DNA from: a virus
Direction: 5' to 3' (one strand)
DNA: 10,733 bases
UHGV virus genome: UHGV-0333516
Below the pieces are notes generated by a model. It was not told the origin of the DNA, ran no database searches, and saw only the letters and a program-made list of their open reading frames with translations. Below, piece after piece: positions 1,845 to 10,733 of this stretch. Both the position numbers and the translations under genes were made by a program. Numbering within the stretch: position 1 is the stretch's first letter; each line of letters starts with the position of its first letter.

Positions 1845-1932
1845 TTCTGCAATTCCGGGACGTTACACTGCTCAGGCACCTTATAAAGCGGGTGCCGGGA
1901 TTGGCGTCCTGAAATTGTCAACGGCGATGTAT

Positions 1933-1952
1933 GACGCGCCAGCGTCTTTTTT
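1933..1952 (+). terminator. candidate intrinsic terminator
   Basis: gacgc-gcca-gcgtc stem-loop followed by tttttt; lies inside the 386-aa track ORF. Confidence 0.4.
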
Positions 1953-2118
1953 ATCGTCCGCATTTGCTCACATCCAGATTATGGTGGGCTGGGCGGGGGC
2001 ACCGAAAGGTGCGCCGGTCTCCGTTGACGCCGGTTACGCCAACCCCGTCCAGTTCACCACCAGTGAAATTGGCGTTTCCGGTGGTGGAAGTTTTTCACTG
2101 TCAACGGAGGCTGCCATC

Positions 2119-4187: not shown

Positions 4188-4280
4188 ATGAGTCTTTTGA
4201 ATGAAGTTCAGAAATTCATTGAAGCCCATCCGGGGTGTACTTCCGGAGACATTGCGGATGCTTTTTACGTGGGGGCTTAA
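4188..4280 (+). CDS. 30-aa small ORF (winged-helix N-terminal-like fragment)
   Basis: ATG overlaps the upstream stop; stop overlaps the Dam ATG (TAATG); MSLLNEVQKFIEAHPGCTSGDIADAF resembles the N-terminus of PapI/FaeA-type small regulators. Confidence 0.25.
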   Translation: MSLLNEVQKFIEAHPGCTSGDIADAFYVGA

Positions 4281-4933
4281 TGAGTAATAAATATTGCCAG
4301 GCGCTGGTAGAACTGCGGAACAAACCAGCCCATGAACTGAAGGAAGTGGGCGATCAGTGGCGCACGCCGGACAACATTTTCTGGGGAATTAACACCTTGT
4401 TTGGTCCGTTTGTTCTGGATCTGTTCACTGACGGTGATAACGCCAAATGTGCCGCGTATTACACGGCGGAAGACAACGCGCTGGCGCATGACTGGTCAGA
4501 ACGTCTTGCGGAGCTTAAAGGTGCTGCCTTTGGTAATCCCCCATACAGCCGCGCCAGTCAGCATGAGGGGCAATACATCACCGGCATGCGTTACATCATG
4601 AAACATGCCAGTGCCATGCGTGATAAGGGCGGGCGCTATGTTTTCCTGATCAAAGCGGCCACCAGCGAAGTGTGGTGGCCGGAAGATGCAGATCATATTG
4701 CTTTTATTCGCGGGCGTATTGGTTTTGAACTGCCAGCCTGGTTTATCCCGAAAGACGAAAAGCAGGTGCCAACAGGTGCTTTCTTCGCTGGTGCTATTGC
4801 TGTTTTCGACAAGACCTGGAAGGGAGCGGCAATCAGCTACATCGGGCGCGATGAACTTGAGGCATGTGGTGAGGCGTTTCTGGCGCAGGTTCGCCAGCAG
4901 GCGGAAAAACTGGTCAGGGAGATGGCGGCATGA
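4280..4933 (+). CDS. phage Dam-type DNA N6-adenine methyltransferase
   Basis: GNPPY motif (AAFGNPPYS); likely start ATG 4280 with G-rich RBS; the track ORF starts at 4235 in the same frame. Confidence 0.7.
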   Translation: MSNKYCQALVELRNKPAHELKEVGDQWRTPDNIFWGINTLFGPFVLDLFTDGDNAKCAAYYTAEDNALAHDWSERLAELKGAAFGNPPYSRASQHEGQYITGMRYIMKHASAMRDKGGRYVFLIKAATSEVWWPEDADHIAFIRGRIGFELPAWFIPKDEKQVPTGAFFAGAIAVFDKTWKGAAISYIGRDELEACGEAFLAQVRQQAEKLVREMAA

Positions 4934-5810: not shown

Positions 5811-6626
5811 ATGAATCAGTTGCTTGTAATTGATGGCGTTTCTGTGCGCCAGTACTTCGAATCTAACTACTGTCTTAACGACCTTCAGAAAGCTGCTCTT
5901 CTTGCCGCTGGTGAGAATCGCTCCTCCCGTTCGCTGGAAGTTCACGAGTTTATGCGTCGTCCTGAAACGAAGGCTCTTGTGGAATTATTGGAAGAAGAAA
6001 CTACGGGAGATTCCCGTAGTATTCCTGTCATCACCATTCAGGGGCGCAATGGTGGGACGTATGTCTGTAAAGAGCTGGTCTATGCATATGCAATGTGGAT
6101 CAGCCCGGCATTCAGCTTAAAAGTGATACGTACTTTTGATGCGCTTCATAATTCATCACCAGAAGAAACCACATCCGACAAAATTAAATCCGGGGTCATT
6201 CTGCTTGAATCAGCAGCAAAGACTCTAAATCTGTCAAACTCCTCGAAACTTGGTGCATACCAGAAATTATCAAAGGTAGCTGGTCTTCCTGAACTTATGC
6301 CGATCTATGCCATTGATGCACCTGCTGATGCGCCAGATGGTTCAAGCCGCCCTACGCTGTCGCTGAGTGCACTGCTGAAGCAGTATGGTATCCGCCTGAC
6401 GGCTAATCAGGCATATCACCAGATGGCGAAGCTGGGGATCGTTGAACAACGCGAACGATACAGCCGTACCGCGATTAACAACATCAAAAAATTCTGGTCG
6501 CTGACAGCGAAAGGTTGCATGTTCGGCAAGAACATCACCAGTCCCGCAAATCCGCGCGAGACGCAGCCGCATTTCTTCGAATCCCGATTCCCTGAGCTGT
6601 TAAAGCTGCTCGATACCGTTCATTGA
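5811..6626 (+). CDS. KilA-N domain protein, antirepressor-like
   Basis: N-terminal KilA-N-like region (...PVITIQGRNGGTYVCKELVYAYAMWISPAFSLKVIRTFDAL); ATG 5811 with RBS gtggag; the track start 5799 is a GTG in the same frame. Confidence 0.65.
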   Translation: MNQLLVIDGVSVRQYFESNYCLNDLQKAALLAAGENRSSRSLEVHEFMRRPETKALVELLEEETTGDSRSIPVITIQGRNGGTYVCKELVYAYAMWISPAFSLKVIRTFDALHNSSPEETTSDKIKSGVILLESAAKTLNLSNSSKLGAYQKLSKVAGLPELMPIYAIDAPADAPDGSSRPTLSLSALLKQYGIRLTANQAYHQMAKLGIVEQRERYSRTAINNIKKFWSLTAKGCMFGKNITSPANPRETQPHFFESRFPELLKLLDTVH

Positions 6627-6627
6627 G

Positions 6628-7623
6628 GTGACCGTGAGAGCACTACTGACCCCTGAAATTGCCCCGCGTATGGGGATCGTATTGTTCAGACCCGGTTCAG
6701 AGCTGATGCCCCTGTTTATGCAGGGGCGTGTCCTGCTGGAGCCTGAGCCGGAACGTTATTCATCTTTTGCCAGTGGTGCCGTTCCGGCAGCATCACAACC
6801 GCTGGCGGATGATCCTGCCGTTCGGGTCGTGTTCCGCAATGAGGCAGTGATCCGTCGTGCTGGTGGCGTGGAATGTCTTGAAAGCTGGTTACTTCGTGAA
6901 AAAGGTTGCCAGTGGCCTCATTCCGACTGGCACAGCGAGAACATGACCACAATGCGACACGCGCCGGGCGCAATCCGTCTGTGCTGGCACTGCGATAACC
7001 AGCTGCGCGATCAGTTCACGGAACGGCTGGAATCAATGGCAACGGATAACTGTGCCCGCTGGGTGTTGTCTGTTGTGCGTCGGGATCTCGGTTTTGATGA
7101 CAGTCACGTTGTGACAATGCCGGAACTGTGCTGGTGGCTGGTTCGTAATGATCTGGCGGATGCCTTACCGGAAAGTGCAGCCCGTAAGGCACTGAGATTA
7201 CCGAAGCCTGTTGTGCCGTCTGTCACCCGGGAGAGTGACCTTGTGCCTTCGGTTCCGGCCACCAGCATCATCCAGAATAAAGCGAAAAAGGTGCTGGCGC
7301 TGAAAGTGGATCCGGAGTCGCCGGAGTCTTTTATGTTACGCCCAAAACGTCGCCGCTGGGTTAACGAAAAGTACACGCGCTGGGTTAAGACGCAGCCGTG
7401 TGCATGTTGTGGAAAGCCTGCTGATGATCCCCACCACCTGATAGGCCACGGTCAGGGGGGAATGGGTACAAAAGCGCATGACCTCTTCGTGCTGCCTTTG
7501 TGCAGAAAGCATCACGACGAGCTGCATGCGGATACCGTGGCATTTGAAGAGAAGTATGGCTCCCAGCTGGAGCTGATATTTCGTTTTATCGATCGTGCGC
7601 TGGCAATAGGCGTGCTGGCCTGA
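6628..7623 (+). CDS. DUF968-like prophage protein with C-terminal HNH-like Cys/His motif
   Basis: C-terminal CACCGKPADDPHHLIGHGQGGMGTKAHDLFVLPLCRKHHDELH; sits immediately upstream of Q as in other E. coli prophages. Confidence 0.6.
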   Translation: MTVRALLTPEIAPRMGIVLFRPGSELMPLFMQGRVLLEPEPERYSSFASGAVPAASQPLADDPAVRVVFRNEAVIRRAGGVECLESWLLREKGCQWPHSDWHSENMTTMRHAPGAIRLCWHCDNQLRDQFTERLESMATDNCARWVLSVVRRDLGFDDSHVVTMPELCWWLVRNDLADALPESAARKALRLPKPVVPSVTRESDLVPSVPATSIIQNKAKKVLALKVDPESPESFMLRPKRRRWVNEKYTRWVKTQPCACCGKPADDPHHLIGHGQGGMGTKAHDLFVLPLCRKHHDELHADTVAFEEKYGSQLELIFRFIDRALAIGVLA

Positions 7624-7640
7624 TTTTGTGGAGAAAGTTG

Positions 7641-8012
7641 ATGCGTGATATTCAAATGGTTCTTGAACGTTGGGGGGCATGGGTGGCAAATAATCACGAG
7701 GATGTGGAATGGTCATCTGTTGCTGCAGGTTTTAAGGGATTAATTCCTTCGAAAGTAAAATCCCGCCCGCAATGTAGCGATGACGATGGCCTGATCATTA
7801 GCTCTGCGATGACAGTTCTTAAGAAAAAGGAACCGTATCAATACGAATTACTGGAAATGTATTATGTGTATGGGGTTACATTACGGGTGTTGGGGGTAAA
7901 ACTGGGGATATCACTTAATCAGGTTGTTATCAGACTGCAGAAAGCTGAAGGGTTTATTGACGGTTGTCTGGCAATGTTGGGGGTATCTTTAGAAATTGAT
8001 TGTTACATATAG
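7641..8012 (+). CDS. late-gene antitermination protein Q (small Q family)
   Basis: MRDIQMVLERWGAWVANNHEDVEWSS...SKVKSRPQCSDDD...RLQKAEGFIDGCLAMLGV matches the Q-family pattern of E. coli cryptic prophages; ATG 7641 with RBS gtggag. Confidence 0.8.
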   Translation: MRDIQMVLERWGAWVANNHEDVEWSSVAAGFKGLIPSKVKSRPQCSDDDGLIISSAMTVLKKKEPYQYELLEMYYVYGVTLRVLGVKLGISLNQVVIRLQKAEGFIDGCLAMLGVSLEIDCYI

Positions 8013-8087
8013 TAATAAATTCAATCAAAGTAAATAATCATATTTTATTATAACCTCCTGATGATACCTGTTCATTGGGAGGTTATT

Positions 8088-8705
8088 ATGGATAAAAATG
8101 TAGAGCATGTATTAGTTGATGCAATTGAAAATAAGCAATCTTTAACAGTCGTTTACTTAGGAGGGAGCCAGCCCGGAACATTAAGGAATATTTCTCCGAT
8201 TAGTATAAATGGGGATAAATTGCGGGCAAGATGCCATAGTTCTGGAGCAGTAAAGGTTTTCAATCTTGGGAAAATACAGTTACCCAGTGACTCCTGCGCG
8301 GTATCTATGCACTATGGAGATTTAGAAGTTAAAGCTTATGAGACGATGCAGAGCGTAAATGACAACTTTCATGCCCTTTATCCTGAAGGACGATGGGGTG
8401 TTGATTTTAATGAGCATCGCTTTGCTTTATTTGATTTTTTTAAAAACGGGAAACGAAAAAAAACGGCATTTATGGCAATTGAGTTCAGGGAAAGAGATGA
8501 AGAGAAAATAATAACAGGTGTAACAATTGATATTGGTATATCTGGAACAGTGATTTCTGAGAAGTCCCGAATCCCAAAAAGACGACCATGGGTAGTGGTT
8601 GGTCCCGAACACGGAGAATACAGTACTTATTCAACTTTGGACAAGGCTGCTACAGCGTTTTTTGAGAGGCTTTCGTTGATAGCATCCGGCCTGGAAGATA
8701 ATTGA
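8088..8705 (+). CDS. hypothetical AT-rich cargo protein with WYL-like N-terminal motif
   Basis: Strong RBS gggagg 5 nt before ATG 8088; about 205 aa; visibly AT-rich compared with flanking genes; N-terminal LTVVYLGGSQPGTLRNISPISINGDKLRARCHSSGAVKVFNLGKI resembles the WYL/SH3-like beta-barrel pattern (by eye). Confidence 0.6.
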   Translation: MDKNVEHVLVDAIENKQSLTVVYLGGSQPGTLRNISPISINGDKLRARCHSSGAVKVFNLGKIQLPSDSCAVSMHYGDLEVKAYETMQSVNDNFHALYPEGRWGVDFNEHRFALFDFFKNGKRKKTAFMAIEFRERDEEKIITGVTIDIGISGTVISEKSRIPKRRPWVVVGPEHGEYSTYSTLDKAATAFFERLSLIASGLEDN

Positions 8706-8835
8706 TTTTATGTTTGGTATTCAGAGTTCGCCGTGCTTAAGAAAGTCAAGATTCTAAAAATACTGAATGAGCTACTTGTGTTATAACAAAAATGCTATTA
8801 GTGTGTTAAGAGTGGTTACTTCGCCACACAACTTA

Positions 8836-8859
8836 AACCCGCCACTGAGCGGGTTTTTT
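8836..8859 (+). terminator. intrinsic terminator (tR'-like)
   Basis: aacccgc-cactga-gcgggtt stem-loop followed by tttttt. Confidence 0.6.
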
Positions 8860-8981
8860 GTACCTGTAAACTTGGTGCAGTACAGTAAACACGCTGGTGG
8901 TCGTGAATACTGACTTTTTATCTTGCTGGCTTTTTAGACAAGAGTTATTGGTATGTCATGTTAACCAGAAGGGAAAAAGAC

Positions 8982-9179
8982 ATGCTAAAACAGCAAGATA
9001 TGACCGAAACCGCCAGAGTGGTGTTTAATGAATTGAGCGTCACCGAACCGGCGACAGTCGGGGAGATTGCGCAGAATACTTACCTTTCACGCGAACGCTG
9101 CCAGTTAATACTGACCCAGCTGGTTATGGCGGGTCTGGCAGACTATCAGTTCGGTTGTTACAGACGCCTTCCGCAGTGA
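8982..9179 (+). CDS. small winged-helix-like protein (PapI/FaeA-like by eye)
   Basis: 65 aa from ATG 8982 (RBS agaaggga); the track start 8958 is in the same frame; TVGEIAQNTYLSRERCQLILTQLVMAGLA resembles small wHTH regulators. Confidence 0.45.
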   Translation: MLKQQDMTETARVVFNELSVTEPATVGEIAQNTYLSRERCQLILTQLVMAGLADYQFGCYRRLPQ

Positions 9180-9193
9180 AGGCTTTTTTATTT
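9166..9193 (+). terminator. intrinsic terminator overlapping the stop of the small wHTH gene
   Basis: gccttc-cgcagt-gaaggc stem-loop followed by ttttttattt. Confidence 0.6.
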
Positions 9194-9329
9194 GTGGTAA
9201 ATGGGCGGTTGGTGGGTGTTAGGGGCACCCACCAGCCATCTGCTCATGCGTTGGGTTCACAAGCAAACCTCAGGCCCACTGCTTTGCGCAAAAGCAGAAT
9301 GAGCCTATCAGAGACAGGCTTAATGATCC

Positions 9330-10379
9330 ATGCTTAATACTGTAAAAATATCCAGTTGTGAGTTAATCAACGCCGACTGCCTGGAATTTATCCGGTCGTT
9401 ACCCGAAAATTCTGTTGACCTGATAGTCACGGACCCGCCGTACTTTAAAGTGAAGCCTGAGGGCTGGGATAACCAGTGGAAGGGCGACGATGATTACCTG
9501 AAGTGGCTGGACCAGTGTCTGGCGCAGTTCTGGCGGGTGCTGAAACCTGCCGGAAGTCTTTACCTGTTCTGTGGTCATCGCCTGGCATCTGATATCGAAA
9601 TCATGATGCGTGAACGCTTCAGTGTGCTGAACCATATTATCTGGGCGAAGCCGTCCGGACGCTGGAACGGATGCAACAAGGAAAGCCTGCGGGCGTATTT
9701 CCCCGCCACAGAGCGCATTCTGTTCGCGGAACATTATCAGGGGCCGTATCGTCCGAAAGATGCCGGGTATGAGGCGAAGAGCAGGGCACTGAAACAGCAT
9801 GTGATGGCCCCGCTGATTGCTTACTTTCGTGATGCGCGCGCTGCCCTGGGGATAACGGCAAAACAGATTGCAGATGCCACAGGAAAGAAAAACATGGTGC
9901 CGCACTGGTTCAGTGCCAGTCAGTGGCAGCTACCGAACGAAAGCGATTATCTGAAATTACAGTCGCTGTTTGCCCGGGTGGCAGAAGAGAAACATCAGCG
10001 GGGAGAACTGGAAAAGTCCCATTACCAACTGGTCAGCACATACAGTGAGCTGAACCGGCAGTATACGGAACTGCTGAGTGAATATAAAAATTTGCGGCGG
10101 TATTTCGGTGTGACGGTGCAGGTGCCGTACACCGATGTGTGGACGTATAAACCGGTGCAGTACTATCCAGGGAAACATCCGTGCGAAAAACCGGCAGAAA
10201 TGCTGCAGCAGATAATCAGCGCAAGTAGTCGTCCTGGTGATCTGGTTGCGGATTTTTTCATGGGGTCGGGTTCAACGGTAAAAGCGGCGATGGCACTGGG
10301 GCGTCGTGCGATTGGTGTTGAGCTGGAGACCGGACGTTTTGAGCAGACAGTCAGGGAAGTTCAGGATTTAATCGTTTGA
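9330..10379 (+). CDS. DNA methyltransferase (beta-class N6A/N4C type; motif IV DPPY precedes motif I)
   Basis: LIVTDPPY near the N-terminus and DFFMGSGST near the C-terminus; 349 aa. Confidence 0.85.
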   Translation: MLNTVKISSCELINADCLEFIRSLPENSVDLIVTDPPYFKVKPEGWDNQWKGDDDYLKWLDQCLAQFWRVLKPAGSLYLFCGHRLASDIEIMMRERFSVLNHIIWAKPSGRWNGCNKESLRAYFPATERILFAEHYQGPYRPKDAGYEAKSRALKQHVMAPLIAYFRDARAALGITAKQIADATGKKNMVPHWFSASQWQLPNESDYLKLQSLFARVAEEKHQRGELEKSHYQLVSTYSELNRQYTELLSEYKNLRRYFGVTVQVPYTDVWTYKPVQYYPGKHPCEKPAEMLQQIISASSRPGDLVADFFMGSGSTVKAAMALGRRAIGVELETGRFEQTVREVQDLIV

Positions 10380-10390
10380 AACGGATGAGA

Positions 10391-10419
10391 TTGCAGTATT
10401 AATTCCGTAACGTTATTAT
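10391..10419 (+). promoter_or_regulatory. candidate stable-RNA-type promoter for the tRNA cluster
   Basis: -35 ttgcag (10391-10396), 17-bp spacer, -10 tattat (10414-10419), GC-rich discriminator ctgcgcgcgg immediately before the tRNA 5' end. Confidence 0.45.
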
Positions 10420-10428
10420 TCTGCGCGC

Positions 10429-10504
10429 GGCCCTTTAGCTCAGTGGTGAGAGCGAGCGACTCATAATCGCCAGGTCGCTGGTTCAAATCCAGCAAGGGCC
10501 ACCA
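10429..10504 (+). tRNA. tRNA-Ile(CAU) (ileX/ileZ-like; tRNA-Met not excluded)
   Basis: 76-nt cloverleaf: acceptor ggccctt/aagggcc, D-stem gctc/gagc, anticodon loop ctcataa (CAT), T-loop ttcaaat, 3' ACCA; close to E. coli ileX. Confidence 0.8.
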
Positions 10505-10513
10505 TATCACATA

Positions 10514-10590
10514 CCGCCATTAGCTCATCGGGATAGAGCGTCAGCCTTCGAAGCTGGTTGCGCGGGGTTCGAGTCCTCGATGGCGGTCCA
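10514..10590 (+). tRNA. tRNA-Arg(UCG)
   Basis: 77-nt cloverleaf: acceptor ccgccat/atggcgg, D-stem gctc/gagc, anticodon loop cttcgaa (TCG), T-arm cgggg-ttcgagt-cctcg, 3' TCCA. Confidence 0.75.
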
Positions 10591-10615
10591 TTATCTGTAC
10601 CCTGCGTTGTTAGCT

Positions 10616-10733
10616 CCCGCGCAACCAGCTTCGAAGGCTGACGCTCTATCCCGATGAGCTAATGGCGGTATGTGATATGGTGGCCCTTGCTGGATTTGAA
10701 CCAGCGACCTGGCGATTATGAGTCGCTCGCTCT
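10616..10733 (-). repeat. perfect 118-bp inverted duplicate of 10449-10566 (partial tRNA-Arg and tRNA-Ile copies), running to the window end
   Basis: 10616-10733 is the exact reverse complement of 10449-10566; the 49-bp unique spacer 10567-10615 holds the tRNA-Arg 3' end. Confidence 0.9.

What the first reader, a model, noticed from the sequence alone, without database searches (positions are those of the whole stretch)
8958..10379. Small wHTH protein and two strong hairpins upstream of an orphan methyltransferase
A 65-aa winged-helix-like protein with its own terminator is followed by a 9-bp-stem hairpin (9210-9234) and a 7-bp-stem hairpin (9279-9297), then a 349-aa beta-class MTase with no recognisable restriction partner. 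The layout resembles controller-protein-regulated methyltransferases, though the small protein does not look like a classical XRE-type C protein. The module may protect phage DNA from host restriction or act epigenetically.
Basis: inference. Interest (0 to 1): 0.4.

Follow-up and report, generated by a model that had tools for sequence, protein, structure and literature searches.

The report
Structured leader before phage M.EcoGII-type methylase
The methyltransferase is a near-copy of the already known non-specific adenine methylase M.EcoGII. It sits at the head of a prophage late operon, and the two "hairpins" belong to a strongly conserved, apparently undescribed folded RNA leader that probably keeps this toxic enzyme untranslated until needed.

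Summary
A 65-aa winged-helix ORF (8982-9179) ends in a terminator (9166-9189). Two strong hairpins follow, then a 349-aa beta-class methyltransferase (9330-10379) with no nuclease partner.

The controller-protein interpretation does not hold. The methyltransferase is about 97% identical to M.EcoGII, the characterised non-specific m6A enzyme that is silent in lysogens. The module lies directly downstream of the late promoter PR' (about 8776-8811, placed by homology to the mapped PR' of Sakai Sp5) and upstream of the tRNAs and lysis genes. It is therefore Q-antitermination-dependent late cargo, most likely for broad anti-restriction.

New here:
- **Leader RNA.** The 150-nt spacer is a conserved structured leader (9192-9329). 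It is 80-84% identical across genera whose synonymous sites are saturated, 94% of its cells pair, it shows compensatory changes, and it has no Rfam match. Its favoured fold pairs the invariant UGAUC just before the AUG with an upstream G(G/A)UCA. An alternative three-way-junction fold also has some covariation.
- **Small ORF.** The small, usually acidic wHTH ORF (phrog_331) accompanies the methyltransferase in about 176 of 182 loci. Its function is unknown.

The module occurs in 3026 of 5426 complete E. coli genomes.

The parts
7626..8012 (+). Q antiterminator gene. This is context: the regulator of the late operon that contains the module.
   Evidence: PF06530 at E = 1.5e-47. It is 56% identical to Q of Sakai Sp5.
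8776..8811 (+). Late promoter PR': -35 TTGTGT 8776-8781, -10 TAGTGT 8799-8804, inferred start near A8811.
   Evidence: It aligns with the region just after Q in Sakai Sp5, phiP27 and SfV. The Sp5 PR' start was mapped by dRNA-seq at 1,266,203 (PMC7547250). That is L188 position 2346 after a 142-nt version offset, which I checked against the mapped tR' 3' end.
8838..8859 (+). First GC-rich hairpin plus T-run, at +27 to +49 of the PR' transcript. It looks like a terminator and is symmetric enough to work in both directions.
   Evidence: Read from the sequence and the fold. SfV annotates the equivalent site as a terminator. The homologous Sp5 hairpin is read through, because PR' transcripts there end at +258.
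8982..9179 (+). 65-aa winged-helix protein (phrog_331), function unknown. It is a conserved partner of the methyltransferase.
   Evidence: It is present upstream of the methyltransferase in about 176 of 182 loci. pN is 0.06-0.17 against pS 0.67-0.83.
9166..9189 (+). Intrinsic terminator overlapping the stop codon of the small ORF.
   Evidence: Terminator scan. Hairpins with different sequences occupy the same position in other genera, but the Providencia-group loci have none.
9192..9329 (+). Conserved structured leader RNA of the methyltransferase mRNA.
   Evidence: Covariance model R1 gives exactly one hit per locus in 93 of 93 loci, always on the + strand and ending at the AUG. 94.4% of cells pair, against 28-42% for slid controls, and 0 of 500 shuffles reach the observed value. 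It is 80-84% identical where synonymous sites are saturated. There is no Rfam match.
9201..9247 (+). Hairpin I: P1' (9201-9206 with 9242-9247) plus P2 (9207-9218 with 9226-9237).
   Evidence: -30.2 kcal/mol, z = -4.65. Eight of the 14 P2 pairs tested change on both sides. P1' is 97-98% paired.
9254..9329 (+).
   Evidence: These pairs appear in the unconstrained MFE of at least half of 80 unique sequences. Pair counts are P7 92.9%, P6 94.4%, P4 92.2%. Covariation at 86:123 is GC44/AU19/GU17 with none unpaired, and at 67:148 is AU35/GC19/GU12.
9202..9278 (+). Alternative three-way junction (state B): P1 9202-9206 with 9274-9278, P3 9241-9248 with 9258-9265, enclosing P2. P5 lies downstream at 9302-9320.
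   Evidence: RNAalifold consensus. Pair counts are P1 99.8%, P3 71%, P5 77%. Two informative variants are the L026 double change and the L172 triple change. State B is on average about 10 kcal/mol less stable than state A.
9330..10379 (+). M.EcoGII-family non-specific N6-adenine methyltransferase, 349 aa.
   Evidence: PF01555 at E = 3e-44. 340 of 350 aligned positions match the published M.EcoGII sequence. Biochemistry from PMC5778455.
10429..10590 (+). tRNA-Ile (CAU, ileZ type) 10429-10504 and tRNA-Arg (UCG) 10514-10590. These are the next late-operon cargo.
   Evidence: ARAGORN and Rfam. RefSeq annotation of the near-identical locus.

Best explanation
This is the promoter-proximal cargo of a lambdoid prophage late operon. 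Its order is PR', a short hairpin, the small wHTH ORF, a terminator, a 138-nt structured leader, an M.EcoGII-type non-specific m6A methyltransferase, tRNAs, and then the lysis and morphogenesis genes.

In the lysogen the enzyme is toxic if made. It is kept off in two ways. One or two intrinsic terminators lie between the constitutive PR' and the gene. In addition, the favoured fold of the leader pairs the only Shine-Dalgarno-like element (UGAUC, immediately 5' of the AUG) with an upstream G(G/A)UCA.

On induction, Q-modified RNA polymerase reads through the terminators. The methyltransferase is then made and methylates adenines in progeny DNA regardless of sequence, which protects it from many restriction systems.

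Shown here: identity to M.EcoGII, the gene order, homology to a mapped PR', and conservation and covariation of the leader. Inferred: Q dependence in this particular phage, repression of translation by the leader, and the anti-restriction role. Unknown: what opens the leader, and what the small protein does.
For: - The methyltransferase is 97% identical to M.EcoGII. M.EcoGII is non-specific, blocks many restriction enzymes, is deleterious when expressed constitutively and is silent in the lysogen.
- Context: Q lies upstream. PR' is homologous to the dRNA-seq-mapped Sp5 PR'. tRNAs, holin, lysozyme and terminase lie downstream in the 99%-identical locus. SfV and phiP27 have the same order.
- Terminators are present at 8838-8859 and 9166-9189.
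- Leader: the spacer length is constant at 142-154 nt in 25 of 26 comparison loci; L024, a frameshifted small ORF, is the exception. It is 80-84% identical while pS is 0.58-0.83. State A has 94.4% of cells paired, with 11 pairs changing on both sides and 0 of 500 shuffles reaching the observed values. State A is within 2 kcal/mol of the MFE in 45 of 63 sequences. G.U pairs outnumber A.C about 4 to 1 in state-A helices, which favours + strand RNA. The model hits once per locus, always abutting the AUG.
- No canonical SD precedes the AUG. The invariant UGAUC is paired in P7 in 93% of cells.
Against: - No expression data were available for this locus, so Q dependence and translational repression are inferences.
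- The window's own variant weakens P7 (GUUCA gives a U.U mismatch). Its full-length MFE uses a local hairpin (9302-9320) instead of domain II.
- Many leader positions are invariant and so say nothing about pairing. The covariation comes from a few clades, so the number of independent events is small.
- The pair-count alignments were fitted to a structure. It was state B's, which biases against state A rather than for it.
- In Sp5 the hairpin homologous to 8838-8859 is read through in lysogens. The small ORF may therefore be transcribed in lysogens, and only the second terminator would then guard the methyltransferase.
- The Providencia-group loci lack that second terminator.
Confidence: 0.55

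Rival explanations
1. The small wHTH protein is a controller (C-protein-like) transcription factor that binds the hairpin region as DNA operators and times methyltransferase transcription.
For: The small wHTH fold is confident. It is tightly linked to the methyltransferase. Hairpin 1 is an inverted repeat.
Against: - There is no restriction gene.
- The protein is not XRE-type; only sub-threshold TrmB/MarR hits and generic wHTH fold matches at E >= 1e-3.
- It is acidic in most variants.
- The arms of hairpin 1 change by compensatory substitutions with many G.U pairs, while helix 3 of the protein is invariant. That fits RNA pairing, not an operator co-evolving with its protein.
- Four loci keep the leader or the methyltransferase without the small ORF.
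- No symmetric operator lies upstream of the small ORF.
Confidence: 0.05
2. The leader is an operator RNA for a protein. Either the co-conserved small wHTH protein or the methyltransferase itself (translational autoregulation) binds it and shifts it between the closed fold (state A) and the three-way-junction fold (state B).
For: - Both folds have covariation support. In L172, G12A, C56U and G79A change together and keep both P1' and P3. In L026, G13A and C95U keep P1.
- Unpaired leader nucleotides such as GUGAAAUGG and CAUUCGC are invariant, and so are the protein motifs MLKxxDMT and RCQLILTQL.
- The short-leader clade keeps exactly GUGAAAUGG plus hairpin I, and it keeps the small ORF.
- Some wHTH domains bind RNA hairpins; SelB is among the fold matches.
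- M.EcoGII binds and methylates RNA.
Against: The small protein is acidic with few basic residues. No binding data exist. State B is on average 10 kcal/mol less stable. The informative variants are few.
Confidence: 0.2
3. The leader is mainly an RNase III processing site. Cleavage of the roughly 20-bp hairpin I separates the small-ORF message from the methyltransferase message and remodels the downstream fold to permit translation, as in the lambda N leader or the T7 early mRNAs.
For: Hairpin I is about 20 bp with an internal loop, is very stable and is the only element kept in all clades. Freeing the 3' strand of P1' would allow P3, which competes with the pairing that closes the ribosome site.
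Against: No cleavage data exist. The length and internal-loop criteria are only suggestive. This does not explain why unpaired nucleotides are conserved.
Confidence: 0.15
4. The leader is a metabolite riboswitch, for example one that senses SAM or SAH.
For: It has conserved junction nucleotides, a three-way-junction alternative and two mutually exclusive folds, and the regulated gene consumes SAM.
Against: No known riboswitch class matches. Its distribution is limited to one gene family in Enterobacterales prophages. This pattern is more typical of protein-dependent or self-contained leaders.
Confidence: 0.07

Closest known systems
M.EcoGII / M.EcoGI, the non-specific adenine DNA methyltransferases of E. 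coli O104:H4 prophages (Murray et al. 2018, PMC5778455)
   Same: Same length (349 aa), about 97% identical, beta-class motif order and lambdoid prophage location. The closest phage record is 1720a-02, the phage the paper itself names as carrying a very similar enzyme.
   Different: About 5-6 real substitutions; the rest of the differences are machine-reading errors in the supplement text. Activity was not measured for this allele. The paper does not describe the upstream ORF or the leader.
Controller (C) protein-regulated Type II restriction-modification systems
   Same: A small helix-turn-helix-type ORF lies next to a methyltransferase gene.
   Different: There is no nuclease gene, no XRE-type C protein and no C-box upstream of the small ORF. 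The control region lies between the ORF and the methyltransferase and behaves as RNA. The whole unit is inside a Q-antiterminated late operon.
The PR'-tR' region of Stx phages (StxS locus of Sakai Sp5/Sp15; Sy et al. 2020, PMC7547250)
   Same: The Q proteins are homologous (56% identity). The PR' -35/-10 elements and the initial transcribed region, including the +27 to +49 hairpin, are homologous. The tRNAs follow.
   Different: Sp5 has replaced the small ORF, the leader and all but the last 33 codons of the methyltransferase with StxS-specific sequence and its tR'.
Leaders that sequester the ribosome-binding site of toxic genes (hok and tisB type I toxin mRNAs; the RNase III-processed lambda N leader)
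   Same: Long-range pairing closes the translation start of a gene whose product harms the host. An alternative fold exists.
   Different: No antisense RNA partner was found. The activating event is unknown. Membership cannot be claimed without experiments. This comparison rests on general knowledge, not on a test made here.
Rfam families and known riboswitch classes
   Same: It is a structured, conserved 5' leader with a multi-helix junction.
   Different: No match to any of the 4227 models, even at E <= 10 on the short region or in three divergent homologues.

Membership tests
Beta-class N6/N4 DNA methyltransferase (Pfam PF01555) | Significant match to the family profile above the curated cut-off | tested here: met
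   152 bits against a cut-off of 26.7, E = 3.1e-44, covering residues 29-340.
Beta-class N6/N4 DNA methyltransferase (Pfam PF01555) | Motif order: catalytic DPPY, then target-recognition region, then FxGxG | tested here: met
   TDPPYF at residues 34-39 and FFMGSGST near residue 310 of 349.
M.EcoGII / M.EcoGI non-specific adenine methyltransferases | Close sequence identity to the characterised enzyme over its full length | tested here: met
   340 of 350 aligned positions are identical to the M.EcoGII sequence printed in the PMC11551740 supplement. That text was machine-read, and several of the differences are reading errors.
M.EcoGII / M.EcoGI non-specific adenine methyltransferases | Methylates adenine in any sequence context | not testable with these tools
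   Inferred from identity only. M.EcoGI differs from M.EcoGII at 16 positions and is also reported as non-specific.
Controller-protein-regulated restriction-modification system | A cognate restriction endonuclease gene next to the methyltransferase | tested here: not met
   The flanking genes are Q, phrog_8498 (unknown, weak WYL), the small ORF and tRNAs. There is no nuclease hit in Pfam, NCBIfam, PHROGs or PADLOC.
Controller-protein-regulated restriction-modification system | An XRE-type helix-turn-helix C protein | tested here: not met
   No XRE/HTH_3 hit. Only sub-threshold TrmB/MarR/DprA_WH hits. The predicted fold is a winged helix.
Controller-protein-regulated restriction-modification system | A palindromic C-box operator upstream of the C gene | tested here: not met
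   8860-8990 contains only weak inverted repeats with 38-44-nt spacing.
TrmB / MarR family transcription regulators (the name RefSeq gives the small ORF) | Profile match above the curated cut-off | tested here: not met
   TrmB 17.6 bits against a cut-off of 25.6; MarR_2 14.4 against 27. No NCBIfam model matches. The protein shares the fold class only.
Lambdoid late operon under Q antitermination | A Q gene upstream, a PR'-type promoter after it, and lysis and morphogenesis genes downstream on the same strand | tested here: met
   Q is PF06530 at E = 1.5e-47. PR' is homologous to the mapped Sp5 PR'. Holin, lysozyme and terminase lie downstream in the 99%-identical locus.
Lambdoid late operon under Q antitermination | Q-dependent read-through of the terminators into the methyltransferase | not testable with these tools
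   Needs transcript mapping with and without induction.
Intrinsic (rho-independent) terminator | A GC-rich stem-loop followed by a U-run | tested here: met
   9166-9183 has 6 pairs (4 G-C) followed by TTTTTT. 8838-8859 has an 8-bp GC stem followed by TTTTTT.
Any Rfam 15 RNA family, including all curated riboswitch and ribozyme classes | A covariance-model match to the leader | tested here: not met
   Nothing relevant at E <= 10 on 8700-9400, nor at E <= 1 on Salmonella, Providencia and L172 homologues.
Structured cis-regulatory RNA (generic) | Base pairs conserved, with compensatory changes beyond controls | tested here: met
   State A: 94.4% of cells paired against 28-42% when slid, 11 pairs changing on both sides, 0 of 500 shuffles. 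State B: 85.8%, 16 pairs.
Riboswitch | Direct binding of a small-molecule ligand that changes the fold | not testable with these tools

The most novel reading that the evidence does not exclude
The leader is a true two-state riboregulator dedicated to a promiscuous nucleic-acid methyltransferase. The closed fold hides the start site. The three-way-junction fold opens it. The switch is thrown either by the co-conserved 65-aa wHTH protein or by the methyltransferase acting on its own mRNA, through binding or through m6A of conserved unpaired adenines. That would be an undescribed autoregulatory circuit for an enzyme now widely used as a chromatin-mapping tool.
Probability: 0.2. Interest if true: 0.75.

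Novelty: new member of a known kind. Interest (0 to 1): 0.5.

Why it matters
M.EcoGII is a commercial enzyme used for chromatin and RNA footprinting, yet how its native gene is controlled has not been described. The original paper notes only that it is silent in the lysogen and toxic when expressed constitutively.

This module is present in more than half of complete E. coli genomes, at up to 8 copies per genome. In many Stx2 phages it lies immediately upstream of the tRNAs and the Shiga toxin genes. A conserved leader that governs it, and a partner protein of unknown function, are therefore common, testable pieces of prophage late-gene control and of phage anti-restriction.

The finding also corrects how the gene is likely to be read. 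It is not a motif-specific epigenetic methylase and not part of a restriction-modification system.

Tried and rejected
- **M.EcoGIX.** I first suspected it as the match. It is plasmid-borne, so I dropped it.
- **PDB sequence search.** It found no M.EcoGII entry and nothing for the small protein.
- **Fold search of the small protein.** It gave only generic winged-helix matches at E >= 1e-3: N-terminal dimerisation domains of O-methyltransferases, MarR/OhrR, IclR and SelB. This assigns no function.
- **AsxR/AgvB anti-sRNA locus.** Comparing the window with the region 3' of stx2B in Sp5 found no similarity. The only shared stretch is the PR' region.
- **Homology of the 9166-9189 terminator to the mapped Sp5 tR'.** The alignment was unconvincing and I do not claim it.
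- **Hammerhead reading.** GAAA and CUGAUC are present, but by inspection the A15.1-U16.1 pair and the core spacing do not fit, and Rfam gives no ribozyme hit.
- **Promoters inside the leader.** The scan found no sigma-70-like promoter there.
- **Plain MAFFT plus RNAalifold.** This under-called the structure because loops and a bulge were misaligned. A covariance model fixed this.
- **Weak model hits.** L163, L175, L177 and L179 were in the first alignment. I excluded them in the second by a stricter threshold.
- **First dN/dS attempt.** It was mis-sliced by one codon and I redid it.
- **More distant small-protein homologues.** Those beyond the top 120 could not be retrieved.
- **Literature.** No paper in the library prints the leader sequence. 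HnrS, the Pas sRNAs and the StxS paper do not mention this element or the methyltransferase.
Full report
**What is in the window.** The window is the early-right/late junction of a lambdoid E. coli prophage. From left to right it carries:
- a cI-like repressor and a cro-like gene, an antirepressor region, and replication genes;
- a Dam-family methylase, a DUF968 gene, and a Q antiterminator (7626-8012, PF06530);
- a 205-aa ORF of unknown function (8088-8705);
- the reported module, and then tRNA genes.

A RefSeq chromosome (NZ_CP148357) is 99% identical over 6613-10616. It continues into a third tRNA, a large DUF6645 ORF, holin, lysozyme, terminase and portal genes.

**Checking the observation.**
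- RefSeq calls the 65-aa ORF at the position equivalent to 8982-9179.
- The ORF is preceded by a reasonable Shine-Dalgarno sequence (AAGGGA). It ends inside a terminator: stem 9166-9183 followed by six T.
That stem extends through a small internal loop to 9201-9247, at -30.2 kcal/mol, z = -4.65.
- The second hairpin (9279-9297) is exactly as described.
- The spacer as a whole folds better than any of 200 shuffles.
- The methyltransferase (9330-10379, 349 aa) matches PF01555 at E = 3e-44. It has DPPY near the N-terminus and FxGxG near the C-terminus, which is the beta-class order.

**The methyltransferase is a known enzyme.** The best phage match to the region is Escherichia phage 1720a-02. The paper that characterised M.EcoGII names that phage as carrying a very similar enzyme, and gives M.EcoGII as 349 aa.
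- I recovered the M.EcoGII sequence from the supplement of a later engineering paper. 340 of 350 aligned positions match, and several of the mismatches are evident machine-reading errors.
- M.EcoGII methylates adenine in any sequence context, in double- and single-stranded DNA and in RNA. It blocks many restriction enzymes, is harmful when expressed constitutively, and is not expressed in the lysogen.
- Its close relative M.EcoGI and the ST131 homologue M.EcoMV behave the same way.

**Where the module sits.** The block conserved among phages with different Q genes begins near 8776-8804.
- Aligning 8740-8900 with the sequence just after Q in Sakai Sp5, phiP27 and SfV shows a shared promoter layout: TTGnnn, a 17-nt spacer containing AAAAAT, then TAnnnT. 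It also shows a shared initial transcribed region ending in a GC-rich hairpin with a T-run.
- In Sp5 the PR' start and the tR' 3' end were mapped experimentally at 1,266,203 and 1,266,460. A 142-nt offset separates the two versions of the record. With that offset the mapped 3' end falls exactly on the T-run of the predicted terminator, and the start falls 7 nt after a TATCAT hexamer.
- By this homology the window's PR' is -35 8776-8781, -10 8799-8804, with the start near A8811.
- The window's Q is 56% identical to the Sp5 Q.
- Sp5 keeps only the last 33 codons of the methyltransferase, just after its tR'. The StxS region there replaced the small ORF, the leader and most of the gene.

The module is thus the first cargo of the late operon, ahead of the tRNAs and, in Stx phages, ahead of the toxin genes. 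Two terminator-like sites (8838-8859 and 9166-9189) separate PR' from the methyltransferase. In Sp5 the first hairpin is read through in lysogens. It is therefore open whether the small ORF is transcribed in lysogens and only the second terminator guards the methyltransferase.

**The small protein.**
- It belongs to phrog_331, function unknown. It has 334 database clusters, all from Enterobacterales and mostly labelled "TrmB family" by automatic annotation.
- Pfam matches are below threshold, and NCBIfam has none.
- AlphaFold2 gives a confident winged helix, pLDDT 92.5. Fold matches are generic, with E >= 1e-3. The top ones are N-terminal dimerisation domains of small-molecule O-methyltransferases, followed by MarR/OhrR, IclR and SelB.
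- Nine of the 11 variants examined are acidic, pI 4.4-5.6.
- Across 182 loci, about 176 have the ORF directly upstream of the methyltransferase. One of the remaining loci is a frameshifted pseudogene and four lack it.
- MLKxxDMT and RCQLILTQLxMAGL are nearly invariant, while the middle and the wing vary.
- Non-synonymous divergence is 0.06-0.17 where synonymous divergence is 0.67-0.83, so this is a real, constrained protein.
- Nothing links it to controller proteins. It is not XRE-type, there is no nuclease gene, and there is no symmetric operator upstream.

**The spacer is a conserved structured RNA.**
- In 26 loci from more than ten genera the distance from the small ORF's stop to the methyltransferase AUG is 142-154 nt. 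The one exception is L024, where the small ORF is frameshifted. The sequence is strikingly conserved.
- The window's leader is 80-84% identical to those of Salmonella, Kluyvera, Citrobacter, Enterobacter, Mixta and Buttiauxella. The flanking genes are only 68-78% identical, and their synonymous sites are at or near saturation.
- A Providencia/Proteus-group set of 80 viral contigs supplies real variation. The arms of hairpin 1 read GACUGUAAAAGUG/CACUCUUACAGUC, GACAGUGAGGAUG/CAUCCCCACUGUC or GACCGAUGAGUG/CACACAUCGGUC in place of GGCUGGUGGGUG/CACCCGGCCAGCC.
- A covariance model built from 39 representatives finds exactly one hit in each of 93 loci. Every hit is on the coding strand and ends at the AUG.
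- No Rfam family matches the element in the window or in three divergent homologues. No paper in the library prints its sequence.

**Which fold?** Unconstrained folding of 80 unique sequences gives the same architecture in most of them. I call this state A. It has four parts:
- Hairpin I: P1' 9201-9206 with 9242-9247, plus P2.
- P7: 9254-9259 paired with 9324-9329. This pairs G(G/A)UCA with the invariant UGAUC that lies immediately 5' of the AUG.
- P6: 9272-9278 with 9300-9306.

Support for state A, counted on an alignment that was fitted to a different structure:
- 94.4% of cells are standard pairs, against 28-42% when partners are slid.
- Eleven pairs change on both sides.
- No shuffle out of 500 reaches the observed values.
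- Two long-range pairs are informative. Pair 86:123 is G-C in 44 sequences, A-U in 19, G.U in 17 and never unpaired. Pair 67:148, the base just before the AUG, is A-U in 35, G-C in 19 and G.U in 12.
- G.U pairs outnumber A.C about four to one in these helices, which points to RNA on the + strand.

There is no canonical Shine-Dalgarno sequence. UGAUC is complementary to GAUCA near the 16S rRNA 3' end, at a suitable distance from the AUG. That complementarity rests on my own knowledge of the 16S sequence and was not tested here.

**An alternative fold.** RNAalifold prefers a three-way junction, which I call state B. It has P1 (9202-9206 with 9274-9278), P2, P3 (9241-9248 with 9258-9265), P4, and P5 next to the start.
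- 85.8% of its cells pair, and 16 pairs change on both sides.
- P3 and P5 are imperfect, at 71% and 77%.
- State B is on average about 10 kcal/mol less stable than state A.

Two variants suggest that both folds matter.
- In L172, three positions changed together (G12A, C56U, G79A). The middle one keeps its partner in P1' and also in P3.
- In L026, G13A and C95U keep P1, and each also improves a state-A pair.

In the window's own sequence the two states are close: -57.7 against -52.6 kcal/mol, with the MFE at -58.2. Its centroid is junction-like. The informative events are few and come from a few clades, so I treat the switch as a hypothesis.

A related clade (L173-L223) has a shorter leader. 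It keeps only GUGAAAUGG plus hairpin I, and it keeps the small ORF.

**Most likely mechanism.** The methyltransferase is late-operon cargo for broad protection of progeny DNA.
- It is kept off in lysogens by terminators downstream of the constitutive PR', and by a leader whose default fold closes the translation start.
- It is made when Q-modified polymerase reads through.
- What opens the leader is unknown. The candidates are the small protein, the enzyme itself, RNase III cleavage of hairpin I, or coupling to translation of the small ORF. In the Providencia group the small ORF's stop codon is only 10 nt from P1'.

I put 0.55 on this overall picture. The identity of the enzyme and its late-operon position are much more secure than the translational part.

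**Novelty and interest.** The enzyme is already known and the operon logic is standard. The conserved leader RNA and the obligate small partner appear to be undescribed. They add a new member to a familiar class of leaders that hide the ribosome site. The module occurs in 3026 of 5426 complete E. coli genomes, at up to eight copies, and it regulates an enzyme of wide practical use. This is worth a modest experimental follow-up.

Noticed in passing
window 1876-2064 (+): Rfam finds isrK (1876-1952, 62 bits, cut-off 50) followed by a C4 antisense RNA (1977-2064, 81 bits, cut-off 45). These lie inside the artificially long ORF 1516-2676. This is a P1/P7-type antisense-RNA immunity control of an antirepressor, here in a lambdoid prophage.
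   Followed up: no
window 10616-10733: The last 118 bases are a perfect reverse complement of 10449-10566. The near-identical chromosome is colinear only up to 10616 and then carries a third tRNA (Arg). The window end is most likely a fold-back assembly artefact, and Rfam reports a truncated minus-strand 'tRNA' there.
   Followed up: yes
window 8776-8963: PR' and a roughly 49-nt initial transcript ending in a symmetric GC hairpin (8838-8859) are homologous to the start of the Sp5 StxS transcript. A weak minus-strand match to STnc130 (8963 to 8827, 30 bits, cut-off 55) shares the same hairpin. This fits the 'convergent sRNA' sites that Tree et al. 2014 describe near PR'.
   Followed up: partly
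window 8052-8705: A low-GC 205-aa ORF (phrog_8498, unknown, with weak WYL hits at E about 1e-3 to 1e-2) lies between Q and PR'. phiP27 has a GIY-YIG gene at this position. Its GGAGG Shine-Dalgarno sequence lies in a 9-bp inverted repeat, ATAACCTCC (8052-8060) with GGAGGTTAT (8079-8087).
   Followed up: partly
window 4235-4933 (+): A second methyltransferase of the phage Dam family (PF05869, E = 7e-45, NPPY motif) is encoded in the early region. The prophage therefore carries two adenine methylases.
   Followed up: no
window 10429-10504 (+): ARAGORN calls this tRNA-Met (CAU). RefSeq annotates the identical gene as tRNA-Ile (ileZ type, read as Ile after lysidine modification), as in Stx phages.
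   Followed up: partly
L188 (Sakai Sp5) 2612-2710: Sp5 retains only the last 33 codons of the methyltransferase (85% identical), immediately after the mapped tR'. The StxS-specific sequence has replaced the small ORF, the leader and most of the gene.
   Followed up: yes
L173-L223 (viral contigs), about 100 nt upstream of the methyltransferase: A related clade has a shorter leader. It keeps GUGAAAUGG plus a covarying hairpin I, followed by a different second hairpin. It also has a small-ORF variant ending ...LLLTQFCLAGLMESRDNDTFFKRCP. L172 belongs to this methyltransferase clade but has the long leader.
   Followed up: partly
L021 3169-3302: This is a decayed copy. The small ORF has an altered N-terminus and a recognisable leader follows it (101 bits), but the methyltransferase has been deleted and replaced by unrelated ORFs.
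   Followed up: partly
window 9324-9329 and homologues: The sequence just before the methyltransferase AUG contains an almost invariant GATC (a Dam site at the DNA level). In the Providencia group its pairing partner is also GATC, about 75 nt upstream. Whether host or phage Dam methylation plays any part here was not examined.
   Followed up: no
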